Below are positions 35,600 through 58,880 of a stretch of 64,000 nt of DNA, in pieces (within the stretch, counting starts at the first letter, position 1; each line of letters starts with the position of its first letter). Source of the stretch: the human T2T-CHM13v2.0 reference genome, Homo sapiens; contig CP086569.2 in NCBI GenBank assembly GCA_009914755.4, positions 7,424,001 to 7,488,000 of the forward strand, written 5' to 3'. The notes under the pieces were generated by a model. The model saw only the letters and a list, made by a program, of their open reading frames with translations. It was not told the origin of the DNA and made no database searches. Made by a program: the position numbers and the translations under genes.

Positions 35600-38500
35600 C
35601 AGGGCATGCCCACATGTTGACAACCCTGGAGCCCCTTTTTCCCAGGGAGGACTTGAGCAGGAAAAGCAAGATGTAGGACAGAGAAAGACTAATTCATAAA
35701 GGTAAGGGAGTCATGCCCTTAAAAAAGAAACACAAACTCTTCTAAAAGGTGAGGGAAACACTCATGTGAGGTGGTACCATGCAGAAGAGTCACATTACCT
35801 TGAGGCTGGGTCCAGGCATATGTCACAACCTTCCCTTAGGACAAGACCCAGGCAAGAGAGTTTCAACAAATAGGTACATGTTCCACCTTTATGTTGTAAT
35901 GCTTCATATGGGCAAGGCTCAAGCAGGTAGTCATATCACCTAGGTAACAGGCCCAGATATATGTCACAATATCCTCCTTGAGACATGATTCTGGGGAAAC
36001 TCTACCACCATCTGTGTGCCTTGCCTAGCAATATGTCACTATCCAGGTAAGCCAGACCCAAGCAGGAGAGCAGAAATACGAACCTGATAGGCCAAGGTAT
36101 TTGTCACAATCCCCTTTTTTGGACATTACCCTAGAAAAAGAGTACCATCAACAGTGTGCCAGTCCCAGCCATGTGCTACTATCCCCTAGTGTGAGTACAG
36201 CCCATTCTAAAGAGGAGATTTGTACAACCTAACTGGTTGATACAGTGATATGTCACAATGACTTCTGTGGGCATGGCTTAGGCAAAAATGTAACATGACC
36301 TCCGTGCTGGATCTAGTGATATATCACTCTTCTTACTGAGAGCAGGATCCAGGCAGGAAAGTCACATTACCTAGAGGTTGGCCAAGGTAGATATAACAGT
36401 AACATATGTGGGCTGGAACCAGTCTGGAGAGTCAGATCACACAGGTGTTTGGCAGAGATTTATATCACAATCACACTGGCAAAAAATTCCCTGGATGAGA
36501 TTTACAATACCACACATGTCCTTTTATCATGAGCAACAGTTGGCTTCATATATGTAAGACAGTGACAGCGCTTACTGTCATCTGGTGTGAATATGAGATA
36601 ATTTCACCTTTCTGCTGGGTTCTGCTATGACACTCTCTGTCCAAGCCAAGTGCTACATAAAATATCTGAGGCTGTTATAATCTTCTTTGAGCTTTTTTTA
36701 CCAGAAAGATATTTAATCACTCCTTTTTCTAAAACAAGTTATAAGAGTCAAAATTACACCTATTTGTGGGATGCACATGTAAGAGTCATTATCATGCCTG
36801 TGAACTGTGCCTATATATGTAAGAATTTACTCTGTGTTGATGAAATAGACATGACAGTGAAGTAACCTAAATTCTGAGAGAGAAATGTGCCAATATTCTC
36901 CTTGTAGGTATGTTCCTGGCAGAAAAGTTGCATAACTTGGGGGTTAAAGACAGGAATATGGCACAATGCCCATTGTGGGCAGTGTCCAGACAGAAGAAGA
37001 GACTCATATCACCTAAATGACAAACCCAGAATATGTCACAATGTATCCTGTTGAAAGGACCAGGTAAGAGAGTCACATCATTTAGATGCAGTGCTTAGGA
37101 ATGTGACAATCCCCATTGGAAGGAGGGTCAGGGCAGGAGAGGACAGTCAGGTAACTAGATCATGGGTCCAGAGACATGCAACAATCCTTCCTGAGGTTAT
37201 TGTTAAGACAGGAGTGTCAAATCACTGTGGTGATCAGCTATGATATACGTCCAAATCTCATTTGTGGACTATACCTAAGCAGGATTATTAAATAACTCAG
37301 GAGATGGGCAAAGGTATATGTTACAATAATACAGGGTGAAAATTACAGGAATGGGAGTCACCGTCTTGCATATGACATGTCTCCAGGTTTAAGAGTCATA
37401 ATTAGTCCTCATATCTGGTCTCAGTTATATGGCACAGTATTACTTGTGGGCAGAGGGCAAGCAGGAAGGTGACTTTACCTAGGTGGGTGCTGGTCCAGTA
37501 AGATGTCACAATCCTTCTTGTGGGCAGGACAATGGAAGAAGAGTCAAATCACCAGGATGCCGATTTTAGTGATTTATCAAGATTCCCCCTGTTAACAGGG
37601 ATTAGGAAGGTGAGAAGACTCATGTTACTTTTGCAATTGGCCTAGATATGTGTCTCAATGGCTGCTATGTGCTAAACCAAGGTATGAAAGTTGCCTCACC
37701 TTGGCCATGGGTTTAGCAATATGTCACAATCTCCTCTGTGGTCAGGGCAAGACATGAGAGAAAAAATATTTAGATTCTGAGACAAGTGTTTCTGTTGGCA
37801 GAGCCCAAAAAAGAGAGTCACATCACCTGCTTGCGGTGCCCAGTTATGTGTCATAATGCATGATAAGTGCAGGGCCAAAGCAGTAGAAGGGAGTCACATC
37901 ACTTACACAATGGACCTGGATATAAGCCACATATATCTAGATATATTGCCTTTTATAGGCAAGAATCAGGCAAAGAATTCACATCACCTGGGAGCTGATC
38001 CCAGTGATACTTAAAAGTGCCCTTTATAGGCCTGCCCAGACATCTTCACTTAGGTGTATGATCCATGTATATCACAATTTCATCACTAGTCATAACCTAA
38101 AAAGGAAAGTCAAGTTATTCAGGAGCTGTGCTACCTTTTTGTCCTAATCACACACTAGACAATATTCAGAAGTAAGATTCATAGTCCTGCAGAAGTCCTG
38201 GCTTCTTGCATGTGAGTCAACACCTCCTGTGAGTTAGGTTAAAGCAGAGAAGTCACAATCTCAACAATAACAATGGGTAACATCCATGTATAAGATGCCC
38301 AATCTCACTTGAAGATTGTGTTCCACTAGAGGAGTCACATCGTCACAGGTGTGTAGAATCATGCATCAGCAAATGACACATGAATAAGATCCATGTATGA
38401 GGGGAACATTTGCAACCTTTGACTGCTTTTATGTGTGAGATTTAGTAACTTAATTTTAGGCCCTGTTCTTGTGAGAGAATGAAAATTGGATCAGCTTGGT

Positions 38501-56500: not shown

Positions 56501-58880
56501 AACCTAACAATAATTTAAATTGCACCCATGGAAAAGAATTTAAGCTAAAAATTCTCAACTCCTAGGGATATTGGCCTTGTGAAATAAAATAATTTTATCA
56601 TCTTTCAAGTGACACCTTTAACTGTTAGCTTGGTGTGTATATAAAAGTCACAATCTCATGTGTGTTCTGAGTCATTGTATGACACACTACAACATCCGAA
56701 GGCTTTATGCAACATGCAGGAGAGTTGCAAACCACTCTGAGGCCTACATGCTTATATTGACTCACAATCTTAAATATTTATTTAAAGCCAGATAGGACGG
56801 TCAACATGTCTCTTATAGGCTAAGTTCAGATATGAGACCCACTATTACACCTGTGATTTGGGTCCAGAAATGAGTTACCATCTCACCTATAGCAAGATCC
56901 ACATATGAAAGTCACAATTCCATCTGTGTTCTTTATTTACATGTTAGACTCAGGACTTCAACACTGGGTTTGCTAAATGTGGGAGGGTGACACATTTTGC
57001 TATCACCTGGCTAGGTAATCAAGGTCAGAATCCTCACCTTTTCCTGGGCCCTGTTATCAAACTGTGTACCACCCAAGGAGTTTTTAGAATATGAGTTAAT
57101 GTTGTAACTTTCTGTGAGCTTTATTCCAATATGCAACTCATAACAGTACCTATTGCCCTAAGTGTAGCGATGAGAGGCAAAATATCTACTATATGTGGCA
57201 TACCAATTTAAGTTTGATCAGCATGCTTCTGAATTCAAACAATGTAAATTTCACAATCGCATTTGTAAGAAAAAAGCTTGTCAGGAGGGCAGGACAACTT
57301 TGTTGTTCTGCCAAGCAATATGTCACAATGCCATTTTTTTTTGTTTCTCTGGCACAGTCCAGAGAGTTATATCATCAGGGTTGGGGTCCCAGCAACATGC
57401 CATAAAAGTATATCACAATGGCCACTATGTGCAAAACAAAAGTATGAAAGTGACATCACCTTACCAATGGTTTAACAATATGCCACAATCTTCTCTGTGA
57501 TCAGGGTGAGGCAACAGTGGAGAAACATCACCTAGGTTCTGAGCCAAGTGATATGTTAACAAAGCTTTCTGTTGGCAGGACCCAAAACAGAGTCACATTA
57601 CCTGGGTACAGTACCCAGTTATGTGTCACAATGAACTATAAGTGCAGTCTCAAGGCAGTAAAATGGAGTCATGTCACTACAAAATGAACCTAAATATAAG
57701 CCAGAATGCTTTTTATATGCAGGGGTAAGGCAAATAATTCACATCACCTGGGTGCTGGTCACAGTGATATGTAAAAGTGCTCTTTTTAGGCAGTCTCAGA
57801 CAACTTTGCTTATGTGCATGGCCCACGTATGTCACAATTGCATCTGTCATCATGGCCTAAAATGGAAAGCCAAATTATTCAGAAGCTGGAATAACTTTTA
57901 TATTCTAATCAAACCAAATTGAATATTTAGAAATGTGCTTCCAGTTCCACAAATGTCCTGGCTTTTTGTACGTGAGTTGACACCTCCTGTGAGTTGGGTT
58001 GAAGCAGAGGAGTCACAATCTCAACAGTCAGCCAAGAGATTAAAGCCAAAACACCTACAGAATGAGCCAAAGATATGTCAAAAATACTCTCTGTTCCTCT
58101 GGCACAGACAGGACAGTATCATCATCAGGGTGATATGCCTCCCAGTATGCAATAATTCTCACTTTATTGAGGTCTCTGGCAGAAGAGTAACATCATCTGT
58201 GTGCAATAAGTCAAAATTTCCCTTTCTGGGCATGGTTCATAGAAAAGAGTAGAGTCAAAAGACCAAAATGCTGAGCTCACCAATATGCCACTATCCCACC
58301 ATATTAAAGGCCCAGGCAGCATAAAAGAGTCATATCACTTAGGTCATGGCTCAGAGACATGTACCAATATCCCCAGTAGGCAGGACTCAGGCAGAAAATA
58401 AGAGTCGTATCACCTAGGTGCTTCTTTAATTATATGTCACAATATAACACATAGGCAGAAATCAGGCAGAGGAGCCAGAGCACCTGGGTGCTGGGTCCCG
58501 ATATATGTTGCAAGTTCCCTTAGGATGAACCAAGTTGAAAGAGTTCATTGCCTTGATGCAAGTATAACATTCGTTTCACAATGTCCTATGTGGAAGAGGC
58601 CAAAGCATTGAGCTACATCACTTACTTGATAGGACCAGAAATATGTCACAATCTCCTCCCTGAAATATAACCCTGGCAAAAGAGTGCTACAATCTTAGTG
58701 CCAGCCTAGCAATATGTCATTACCACCCGCTGTTTTCAGGACCCATTCCAGAGATGTCATAATTATTTCTGTGGGTGTGGCCCAGGCAAGAATGTATCAT
58801 CACTTGGGTTTTAGATGCAGGGATATGTCACAATCCTTACTGAGAGAACAGCCAAGACAGGAGTATCACATATGTTCAAT
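35600..58880 (+). repeat. ~23-kb tandem array of degenerate 66-70-bp beta-satellite-like (BSR/Sau3A-family) monomers, organised in four diverged ~5-6.4-kb higher-order blocks
   Basis: Hundreds of head-to-tail units of the form ..caggcag(ga)gAGTCACATCACCTAGGTGctgggcccagaaATATGTCACAATatcccctgtgggcagggcc.., e.g. 40321-40390 and 47425-47490. Long marker segments recur at 36500/42480/47560/53990 and at 38310/44290/49380/55565. Paralogous artefact ORFs in the supplied track lie one or two periods apart. Confidence 0.8.
45583..45880 (+). mobile_element. Young AluY-like SINE inserted inside the satellite array
   Basis: ggccagtcgtggtggctcacgcctgaaatcccagtactttgggaggctgaggcaggcagatcacgatgtcaggagatcgagaccatcctggttaacaccatgaaaccccatctctactaaaaatacat...gccactgcactctagcccgggtgacacagcaagactccatttaaaaaaaaaaaaa. 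It is the only Alu in about 23 kb of array. Confidence 0.9.

What the first reader, a model, noticed from the sequence alone, without database searches (positions are those of the whole stretch)
35600..58880. ~23-kb array of highly diverged beta-satellite-like 68-bp monomers in a euchromatin-like, Alu-rich context
From about 35.6 kb the sequence switches abruptly from Alu-rich unique DNA to head-to-tail repeats of a 66-70 bp unit. Each unit carries two conserved cores, (A)GAGTCACATCACCTAGGTG and ATATGTCACAAT(A/G)(T/C)CCCTGTGGGCAGGGCC..CAGGCAG. The unit length, the GATATGTCACAATGCCCCTGTAGGCAG block and the AGAGTTACATCACCTGGGT block match what I recall of the 68-bp beta-satellite (BSR, Sau3A) monomer. 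Here the Sau3A site is usually lost, monomers differ from each other by an estimated 20-40 %, and many units are barely recognisable. The two cores themselves look like an older ~34-bp half-unit duplication (..CAG.A...GTCACA.T.ACC..). This is therefore an ancient, non-homogenised relative of beta satellite rather than a canonical pericentromeric or acrocentric array. It is the dominant unexplained structure in the window.
Basis: partly seen in the sequence, partly recalled or inferred. Interest (0 to 1): 0.7.

Follow-up and report, generated by a model that had tools for sequence, protein, structure and literature searches.

The report
Decayed beta-satellite block in human DNA
This is a 23-kb fossil of an ancient beta-satellite-type tandem repeat in a human chromosome arm, long decayed and no longer homogenised, of a kind already described in the human genome, so it is real but ordinary.

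Summary
Window 35,762-58,871 (23.1 kb, + strand only) is a very degenerate head-to-tail array. TRF finds nothing there, but motif spacing, autocorrelation and profile HMMs all detect it.

The modal period is 71 bp (also 76 and 69), not 68. A profile built only from canonical 68-bp, Sau3A-bearing beta-satellite arrays, fetched as human contaminants of metagenomes, hits the window 140 times, all inside the array. The two consensus units match at 56 of 71 columns. The relationship to beta satellite therefore holds.

Monomer runs alternate with a co-amplified ~340-bp spacer, giving 1.6-1.9-kb sub-units. These are nested in four ~5-6.2-kb higher-order units that are 69-77% identical. One Alu has inserted.

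External human contigs match particular internal copies better than those copies match each other. The finished block was therefore copied among at least five loci and then decayed neutrally, with AT bias and no homogenisation.

The window is human. Its chromosomal position was not established; 19p12-type KRAB-ZNF-cluster blocks (Eichler 1998) are the leading candidate. I found no sign of coding, structured RNA or selective constraint. Verdict: already known kind, low interest.

The parts
35762..58871 (+). Whole degenerate beta-satellite-family array (23,110 bp, one orientation, GC 41.4%)
   Evidence: 219 + strand profile hits with E<=1 between these coordinates and only one weak + hit outside. 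Canonical-only profile: 140 hits, all inside. Self-similarity coverage starts and stops at these coordinates. The only inverted repeats are two Alus.
35762..41819 (+). Higher-order unit U1 (contains S1, 35763-39428)
   Evidence: Colinear multi-kb self-alignments at offsets 6071, 11084 and 17286. S1 is 69% identical to S2, S3 and S4. Repeat families recur at 5.0-6.2 kb spacing.
41820..46846 (+). Higher-order unit U2 (contains S2, 41820-45581, and the Alu)
   Evidence: 41820-45587 aligns with 53151-56867 at 71.7% and 40896-45582 with 45879-50671 at 68%. S2-S4 is the closest pair at 76.9%.
46847..53063 (+). Higher-order unit U3 (contains S3, 46847-50522, and an extra ~1.76-kb internal tandem duplication, 49917-51744 / 51682-53469)
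   Evidence: S3 groups with external contigs L009, L089 and L002 (bootstrap 100) to the exclusion of S1, S2 and S4.
53064..58871 (+). Higher-order unit U4 (contains S4, 53064-56867)
36498..36813 (+). Spacer, full-length copy (~340-bp element co-amplified with the monomers)
   Evidence: Spacer profile E=9e-63. Spacer copies are 70-81% identical to each other.
38401..38730 (+). Spacer, full-length copy
   Evidence: E=2e-76
39311..39618 (+). Spacer, truncated or rearranged copy
   Evidence: two adjoining hits, model positions 68-186 and 148-338
40586..40851 (+). Spacer, truncated copy (model 68-334), first half of a double spacer
40897..41232 (+). Spacer, full-length copy
   Evidence: E=9e-74
42479..42790 (+). 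Spacer, full-length copy
44390..44719 (+). Spacer, full-length copy
45316..45585 (+). Spacer, truncated copy, immediately upstream of the Alu
45582..45875 (+). Full-length Alu inserted into U2 between a truncated and a full spacer; absent from the equivalent site in the other three units
   Evidence: It interrupts the self-alignments at exactly 45582/45879.
45879..46215 (+). Spacer, full-length copy
   Evidence: E=4e-78
47573..47890 (+). Spacer, full-length copy
49494..49809 (+). Spacer, full-length copy
50411..50677 (+). Spacer, truncated copy
50719..51057 (+). Spacer, full-length copy
   Evidence: E=2e-84
52168..52438 (+). Spacer, truncated copy
52481..52815 (+). Spacer, full-length copy
55672..55997 (+). 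Spacer, full-length copy
56608..56867 (+). Spacer, truncated copy
56908..57244 (+). Spacer, full-length copy

Best explanation
What it is: a fossil block of a beta-satellite-family tandem repeat sitting in unique, Alu-bearing human DNA.

How it formed (the order of events is inferred from identity levels and a tree):
1. A ~71-bp unit, itself probably an old dimer of a ~35-bp motif, was amplified head to tail.
2. A stretch of about 15-22 monomers plus a ~340-bp segment (probably about five much older, decayed monomers) became a 1.6-1.9-kb sub-unit, which was amplified again.
3. About three such sub-units formed a 5-6.2-kb higher-order unit, which was copied to four tandem units by unequal exchange. 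Small later changes followed: an extra 1.76-kb duplication in unit 3, and a closer S2/S4 pair.
4. The finished ~23-kb block was copied between at least five genomic sites by segmental duplication.
5. Homogenisation then stopped. All copies decayed independently under AT-biased neutral mutation, and one Alu inserted.

Function: today it has no sequence-specified function that I can detect. Its likely effects are structural. It probably forms a block of H3K9me3 heterochromatin and a substrate for non-allelic recombination, as proposed for the beta-satellite blocks between KRAB-ZNF genes in 19p12. That is the most likely, but unproven, home of this window.
For: Array real and strand-specific:
-.

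Homology to canonical beta satellite, shown with external sequences:
-. The consensus units match at 56 of 71 columns, score 39 against -9.5+-3.9 for shuffles.

Period 71/76/69:
-. External diverged contigs have the same monomer form and periods.

Nested structure:
- Spacer copies are 70-81% identical to each other.
- There are 12 full and 6 truncated spacers, all on the + strand and none outside the array.
- Multi-kb colinear self-alignments occur at offsets of about 5-6.2, 11.1-11.6 and 17.3 kb.
- S1-S4 are 69-77% identical.

Spacer probably derived from monomers:
- Score -65 against -107+-6.6 for shuffles and -105+-13 for flank pieces.

Block dispersal came after the internal duplications:
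- L002, L089, L009 and L067 are 76-79% identical to S3 but 68-71% to the other S copies. L035 and L072 also match S3 best, but S1 is close behind (77.6 vs 74.7% and 77.2 vs 76.7%). L011 is 79.6% identical to 40950-42473 against about 72% elsewhere.
- These contigs are only 74-86% identical to each other, so they come from several loci.
- In the tree, S3 groups with L009, L089 and L002 at bootstrap 100, excluding S1, S2 and S4.

Neutral decay:
- Consensus GC is 59% but the array is 41%.
- G>A and C>T each run at about 0.21 per site, against 0.03-0.11 for changes from A or T. A/T columns are conserved at 0.78-0.92 and G/C columns at 0.60-0.75.

No genes or RNA:
- The longest ORF in the array is 107 aa. 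Rfam finds nothing.

Source and literature:
- Human origin.
- BSR/Beta blocks are enriched in the 19p12 ZNF cluster, in H3K9me3 chromatin. Beta satellite at 19p12 is cited to Eichler 1998.
Against: - The genomic position was not determined.
- No zinc-finger or KRAB remnant occurs anywhere in the 64-kb window or in the fetched contigs.
- The ZNF208/19p12 primers printed in PMC5762523 are absent from the window and the contigs. They are not clearly of the 71-bp class.
- As I recall Eichler's abstract (I could not read the paper), the 19p12 blocks are 'inverted'. This block is strictly unidirectional.
- Ages are soft. The S2-S4 alignment has a transition:transversion ratio near 1, which suggests some misalignment and inflated divergence.
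- The monomer origin of the spacer is only weakly supported.
- The chromatin and recombination roles are inferred from literature on other loci and were not tested here.
Confidence: 0.85

Rival explanations
1. It is a separate, older sister or ancestral family ('proto-beta', 71/76-bp composite with spacer) and should not be filed under beta satellite. Canonical 68-bp Sau3A beta satellite would be a later derivative that lost 3 bp and gained the GATC site.
For: - Two deeply diverged lineages of external blocks share the 71/76-bp form with GGGCAGGGCCCAGG...GGTGCTGGGCCCAG, while canonical units are 68/69 bp.
- The spacer is present in 51 of 73 non-canonical contigs and 0 of 47 canonical ones.
- The internal half-repeat is significant only in the 71-bp consensus: 0 of 300 shuffles reach its score, against 172 of 300 for the canonical consensus. 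That is what one expects if the 71-bp form is closer to the original dimer.
Against: - There is no outgroup, so the direction of change rests only on the half-unit argument.
- The canonical profile still recognises 140 units, so by the usual homology criterion it belongs to the same family.
- This is largely a question of naming and is compatible with the best explanation.
Confidence: 0.3
2. It is a functional array under selection, for example repeated binding sites for a KRAB zinc-finger protein, ZNF555 or CTCF around the TATGTCACAAT core, or a small-RNA or lncRNA source.
For: - The TATGTCACAAT core is the best-kept part of the unit: A/T columns 0.92 and G/C columns 0.75, against 0.78 and 0.60 elsewhere.
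- The array is strictly one-stranded and carries only one Alu in 23 kb.
- 4qA beta-satellite units show enhancer activity and bind ZNF555 (PMC4787827).
Against: - Most of the conservation pattern follows base composition: A/T positions are kept and G/C positions are lost to A/T.
- The core was used to seed the monomer set, which inflates its apparent conservation.
- Monomers are 56% identical pairwise and higher-order copies 69-77% identical, which looks like free decay.
- There is no Rfam match and no long ORF.
Confidence: 0.07
3. It is an ordinary canonical beta-satellite array (pericentromeric or acrocentric type).
For: Homology to the canonical monomer.
Against: - The period is 71 bp, not 68.
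- GATC is depleted, compared with about 1 per unit in canonical arrays.
- Pairwise monomer identity is 56%, while TRF reports 74-81% matches in canonical arrays.
- The spacer is never seen in canonical contigs.
- The flanks are unique Alu-bearing sequence, and the array is assemblable from short reads.
Confidence: 0.02
4. It is an unrelated VNTR or minisatellite, or a transposon-derived tandem array, whose resemblance to beta satellite is chance.
For: TRF finds nothing.
Against: - The canonical-only profile gives 140 hits on one strand, all in the array, 44 at E<1e-3 and none in 41 kb of flank.
- The consensus alignment is 12 SD above shuffles.
Confidence: 0.02

Closest known systems
Beta satellite (BSR/Beta, Sau3A family; Meneveri 1985, Waye & Willard 1989; definitions taken)
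   Same: - Head-to-tail tandem unit.
- Same order of the two cores, ATATGTCACAATGCCC..TG.GGCAG and AG.TCACATCACCT.GGTG.
- 56 of 71 consensus columns identical.
- Recognised by a canonical-only profile.
   Different: - Unit of 71 bp (also 76 and 69), not 68.
- GGTGCTGGGCCCAG where canonical units have the Sau3A-bearing GGTGATCAGTGCAGAG.
- No homogenisation: 56% pairwise identity.
- GC has decayed to 41%.
- Composite with a ~340-bp spacer not seen in 47 canonical contigs.
- Flanked by unique DNA.
Beta-satellite blocks between ZNF91-family KRAB-ZNF genes in human 19p12 (Eichler et al. 1998, Genome Res 8:791; details from my memory of the abstract, the paper could not be read; existence confirmed)
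   Same: - Human.
- Block size of the same order: 23 kb here against about 25-30 kb recalled.
- Complex higher-order structure.
- Several old paralogous blocks, consistent with spread by duplication of a larger cassette.
- Great age.
   Different: - No ZNF or KRAB sequence within this 64-kb window.
- This block is unidirectional, whereas the 19p12 blocks are recalled as 'inverted'.
- The location was not established.
- The printed 19p12 primers are not in the window.
Beta-composite (LSau-bSat) arrays of acrocentric short arms, 4q35 and 10q26
   Same: Beta-type monomers interspersed with a second repeated element and amplified together as a composite.
   Different: The second element here is a 340-bp AT-rich segment, probably decayed monomers. 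It is not the multi-kb GC-rich LSau/D4Z4-related element. The monomers are of the diverged class, not the canonical one.
Monomeric or diverged alpha satellite flanking active centromeric HOR arrays
   Same: The same life history: an old satellite layer that has left the homogenising zone and decays without concerted evolution, accumulating transposon insertions.
   Different: A different satellite family and period. This block lies among unique sequence and has dispersed paralogues, whereas diverged alpha satellite flanks a live array.

Membership tests
Beta satellite (BSR / Sau3A family) | Significant sequence homology to the canonical monomer | tested here: met
   A profile built from 195 canonical monomers taken from external 68-bp arrays gives 140 + strand hits, all in the array, 44 at E<1e-3. 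Consensus identity is 56 of 71 columns, z about 12.
Beta satellite (BSR / Sau3A family) | Monomer of ~68 bp (67-69) | tested here: not met
   Motif spacing mode is 71. Autocorrelation peaks are at 71, 76 and 69. Canonical contigs give 68/69 by the same method.
Beta satellite (BSR / Sau3A family) | Sau3A (GATC) site in nearly every unit | tested here: not met
   48 GATC in 23.1 kb, against 85 expected from base composition and about 1 per unit in canonical contigs. The consensus has GCTGGG at that position.
Beta satellite (BSR / Sau3A family) | Head-to-tail tandem arrangement in long arrays | tested here: met
   219 profile hits, all on the + strand, over 23.1 kb. No inversions.
Beta satellite (BSR / Sau3A family) | G+C-rich (~50%) and organised in homogeneous higher-order repeats | tested here: not met
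   GC is 41.4%, against 46-47.5% in canonical contigs. Higher-order units exist but are only 69-77% identical. TRF detects nothing.
Beta satellite (BSR / Sau3A family) | Pericentromeric or acrocentric-short-arm location | not testable with these tools
   No human genome reference is available here. The flanks are unique sequence with Alus and assemble from short reads, which argues for a chromosome-arm context.
19p12 KRAB-ZNF-cluster beta-satellite blocks (Eichler 1998) | Located in 19p12 between ZNF91-family genes | tested here: inconclusive
   No C2H2, linker or KRAB motif in any frame of the 64-kb window. As I recall, the genes lie 150-180 kb apart, so absence from 64 kb decides nothing.
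19p12 KRAB-ZNF-cluster beta-satellite blocks (Eichler 1998) | Blocks of tens of kb with complex higher-order structure | tested here: met
   23.1-kb block, four 5-6.2-kb units built from 1.6-1.9-kb sub-units.
19p12 KRAB-ZNF-cluster beta-satellite blocks (Eichler 1998) | Multiple paralogous blocks spread by duplication | tested here: met
   At least four external, mutually distinct S3-type contigs (74-86% identical to each other), plus the window.
19p12 KRAB-ZNF-cluster beta-satellite blocks (Eichler 1998) | Inverted, symmetrical arrangement of the repeats (recalled from the abstract) | tested here: not met
   All monomers and spacers are on the + strand. The only inverted repeats are two Alus.
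Beta-composite (LSau-bSat) arrays | Interspersed multi-kb GC-rich LSau elements | tested here: not met
   Every base of 35762-58871 is accounted for by monomers, the 340-bp AT-rich spacer or one Alu. I had no LSau reference sequence, so this rests on size and composition only.

The most novel reading that the evidence does not exclude
The 71/76-bp spacer-bearing class is the ancestral form of the beta-satellite family. It still shows the original ~35-bp dimer and long predates the catarrhine origin usually quoted for beta satellite. Canonical 68-bp Sau3A beta satellite would be a young derivative of it, so this block and its paralogues would record the family's earliest amplification steps.
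Probability: 0.3. Interest if true: 0.3.

Novelty: already known. Interest (0 to 1): 0.15.

Why it matters
It matters little as a discovery. This is human reference-type sequence, and diverged BSR/Beta blocks in chromosome arms have been described since 1998 and are annotated by RepeatMasker.

It has some value as an example:
- It shows how a satellite ages once it leaves the homogenising environment. Nested amplification levels stay readable in the sequence, block-level paralogues date the steps, and AT-biased decay erases the GC-rich parts first.
- It shows that TRF alone can miss a 23-kb tandem array, so 'TRF finds nothing' should not be used as a refutation criterion for old satellites.
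- If the block lies in a KRAB-ZNF cluster, such blocks are relevant to heterochromatin (H3K9me3) organisation and to the recombination that expanded those gene families.

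Tried and rejected
- TRF at score 50 and 30 found no array in 35-60 kb. This is a sensitivity failure, not evidence of absence.
- I searched for a printed beta-satellite consensus. 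There was no hit for the long string. Short strings found only a ZNF208 SNP primer set.
- Eichler 1998 and Waye & Willard 1989 are not held. PMC4787827 has no sequences in its text and no held supplement. The preprint 10.1101/589531 prints no consensus.
- The ZNF208/19p12 primers are absent from the window and from the 120 contigs. Their class assignment is ambiguous (one search used wrong alignment settings and is discarded).
- Zinc-finger and KRAB motif scans of the window and contigs found nothing, with strict and loose patterns.
- Rfam found nothing over the whole window at gathering thresholds.
- No external contig is homologous to the window's flanks beyond the array. Only Alus and simple repeats matched, so the size of the duplicated cassette is unknown.
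- Two of the 120 fetched loci (L054, L095) are chance pattern matches without monomers.
- A second array-internal ORF (57935-58252) is not on record in public assemblies.
- I did not convert divergence to dates. Pairwise K is 0.28-0.40 between internal copies, but the ti:tv ratio near 1 suggests alignment noise.

Full report
**Observation**

TRF reports nothing between 35.3 and 63.3 kb at its default score, and only trivial micro-repeats at score 30. The repeat is nevertheless unmistakable by other measures.

- ATATGTCACAAT with at most 1 mismatch occurs 62 times, always on the + strand and always between 35,818 and 58,834, against 0.71 expected from dinucleotide shuffles.
- With at most 2 mismatches, 131 of 132 + strand hits are inside the array.
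- Hit-to-hit distances cluster at 68-78 (mode 71), about 141 and about 215.
- Base-identity autocorrelation peaks at lags 71, 76 and 69.
- An iteratively built profile gives 219 + strand hits from 35,762 to 58,871 and one weak hit elsewhere.

TRF fails because the units are too different from each other. 154 near-full monomers average 69% identity to the consensus and 56% to each other. Four independent short-read assemblies reproduce 46,211-47,529 at 99.9-100%, so the sequence is real.

**Source organism**

A 132-aa ORF from the left flank and a 107-aa ORF inside the array occur exactly in contigs from human gut metagenomes and other runs. Those contigs are up to 100% identical to the window over as much as 3 kb. 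The window is human DNA.

**Relation to beta satellite, tested without relying on memory**

No accessible paper prints a consensus. I therefore scanned metagenome contigs for the two cores separated by 25-38 bases. This returned 120 loci, nearly all host contamination.

- TRF on these shows that 55 are homogeneous arrays of period 68 (or its multiples), with one GATC per unit. Their consensus is GATCAGTGCAGAGATATGTCACAATGCCCCTGTAGGCAGAGCCTAGACAAGAGTTACATCACCTGGGT. This matches the published definition of beta satellite: a 68-bp unit with a Sau3A site in nearly every unit.
- A profile built only from 195 such monomers hits the window 140 times on the + strand, all inside the array, 44 at E<1e-3.
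- The 71-bp and 68-bp consensus sequences share 56 of 71 aligned columns, with score 39 against -9.5+-3.9 for shuffles.

Homology is therefore established. Three defining features of canonical beta satellite are not met: the 68-bp period, the Sau3A site (48 GATC against 85 expected) and homogeneity.

**A distinct diverged class**

The other 65 or so external loci resemble the window.

- TRF finds only two-copy scraps in them, at periods 71-76.
- By profile score, 66 loci are 71-like and 52 canonical-like.
- Both a close and a distant lineage of these contigs give the same monomer consensus as the window, with periods 71 and 76. Canonical contigs give 68/69.

**Architecture**

Recognisable monomers cover only 54% of the interval. 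The gaps recur every 1.5-2 kb and are 70-81% identical to one another.

*The spacer.*
- A profile of this ~340-bp spacer finds 12 full-length and 6 truncated copies. All are on the + strand and none lies outside the array.
- It is present in 51 of 73 non-canonical external contigs and in 0 of 47 canonical ones.
- It aligns to tandem monomers better than shuffles (z about 6) or flank pieces (z about 3) do. It is probably about five much older monomers, but this is not proven.

*The higher-order units.*
- Self-comparison shows colinear multi-kb alignments at offsets of about 5.0-6.2, 11.1-11.6 and 17.3 kb. The built-in repeat finder confirms them (for example spacings 5990/5088/6189).
- The array is four higher-order units: 35762-41819, 41820-46846, 46847-53063 and 53064-58871. 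Each is about three sub-units of monomers plus spacer. Unit 3 has an extra 1.76-kb duplication.
- The ~3.65-kb cores S1-S4 are 69-70% identical. S2-S4 is closer at 77%.

*Insertions and orientation.*
- One full-length Alu (45582-45875) sits between a truncated and a full spacer in unit 2 only.
- The only inverted repeats are that Alu and the one at 59.7 kb.

**Order of events**

- External contigs match one particular internal copy better than the internal copies match each other. L002, L089, L009 and L067 are 76-79% identical to S3 and 68-71% to S1, S2 and S4. L035 and L072 also match S3 best, though S1 is close behind (77.6 vs 74.7% and 77.2 vs 76.7%). L011, L093, L105 and L036 likewise each have one preferred position.
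- These contigs are only 74-86% identical to each other, so they come from several loci.
- In a neighbour-joining tree of a ~1-kb homologous stretch, S3 groups with L009, L089 and L002 at bootstrap 100, to the exclusion of S1, S2 and S4.

The window shows the whole array bounded by unique DNA, so these contigs must come from other sites. The four-unit block was therefore already built when it was copied among at least five loci.

**Decay and the question of function**

- The consensus is 59% GC and the array 41%.
- Changes from G or C to A or T dominate: G>A 0.22, C>T 0.21, C>A 0.16 and G>T 0.12 per site, against 0.03-0.11 for changes from A or T.
- Consensus A/T columns are kept (0.78-0.92) far better than G/C columns (0.60-0.75).
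- The apparent conservation of the TATGTCACAAT core is largely explained by its A/T richness, and by its use as the seed for the monomer set.
- There is no ORF over 107 aa in the array, no ORF of 150 aa or more anywhere in the window, and no Rfam match.

I conclude neutral, AT-biased decay without homogenisation.

**Half-unit hypothesis**

The two halves of the 71-bp consensus align with score 11, against 5.15+-1.35 for shuffles maximised the same way (0 of 300 reach it). The array has secondary autocorrelation peaks at lags 36 and 38. The canonical 68-bp consensus shows no such signal (172 of 300 shuffles do as well). This moderately supports an old ~35-bp dimer. It also hints that the 71-bp form is closer to the ancestral state than canonical beta satellite.

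**Genomic context**

The literature places diverged BSR/Beta blocks in the 19p12 KRAB-ZNF cluster, within H3K9me3 chromatin (citations to Eichler 1998). From my memory of that abstract, those blocks are about 25-30 kb, have a complex higher-order structure, are interspersed among ZNF91-family genes about 150-180 kb apart, and date to about 50 Myr. I could not read the paper.

In favour of 19p12, the window fits in size, complexity, age and the existence of paralogues.

Against, or undecided:
- The window contains no KRAB or zinc-finger remnant.
- The printed ZNF208 primers are absent from it and are not diagnostic of class.
- The block is not inverted.

I put 19p12 at roughly 0.5-0.6. Only mapping to a human reference can settle it.

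**Age**

Pairwise Jukes-Cantor distances are 0.28-0.40 between internal copies. From the 75-81% identities, I estimate about 0.22-0.29 between the window and its closest paralogues. That is several times what could accumulate since the catarrhine ancestor at ordinary primate rates. It is consistent with published suggestions that the family is far older than canonical arrays. A ti:tv ratio near 1 warns that misalignment inflates these numbers, so I give no dates.

**Verdict**

The object belongs to an already described kind, a fossil beta-satellite-family block in a human chromosome arm. It shows no sign of present sequence-specific function. Interest is low.

Noticed in passing
window 45582-45875 (+) and 59666-59943 (-): Two Alus in inverted orientation about 13.8 kb apart, 73-77% complementary. 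One is inside the array and one just beyond its right edge. They are the only inverted repeats in 35-60 kb.
   Followed up: partly
The youngest-looking is at 9156-9444. The array itself has one Alu in 23 kb.
   Followed up: partly
window 35237-35285: An (AC)24 microsatellite about 475 bp upstream of the left edge of the array.
   Followed up: no
window 7461-7570 and 28366-28436: Nearly perfect (GAAGG)22 and perfect (TCCCTT)12 microsatellites.
   Followed up: no
window 13593-13876: A 148-bp unit present 1.9 times at 88% identity, lying between Alus.
   Followed up: no
L071, L086, L039, L006, L018, L050 (also L014, L090, L096): A second, much more distant lineage of diverged beta-like composite blocks, about 57-60% identical to the window over 1-4 kb. 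It has the same monomer consensus, but 76 bp is its commonest period.
   Followed up: partly
L022, L028, L074, L084, L101 (canonical 68-bp contigs): TRF reports weak 32-35-bp periodicities (53-60% matches) inside canonical beta-satellite arrays. The canonical consensus, however, shows no significant half-unit similarity.
   Followed up: partly
L001-L120 (metagenome contigs): 118 of 120 metagenome contigs matching the two-core pattern are human-type satellite DNA, i.e. host contamination in deposited metagenome assemblies. This bears on the published claims that beta satellite occurs in distant eukaryotes.
   Followed up: no
window 35600-35761: The 160 bases before the first profile hit contain faint core-like strings (gggagtcatgccc, cactcatgtgaggtgg).
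   Followed up: no
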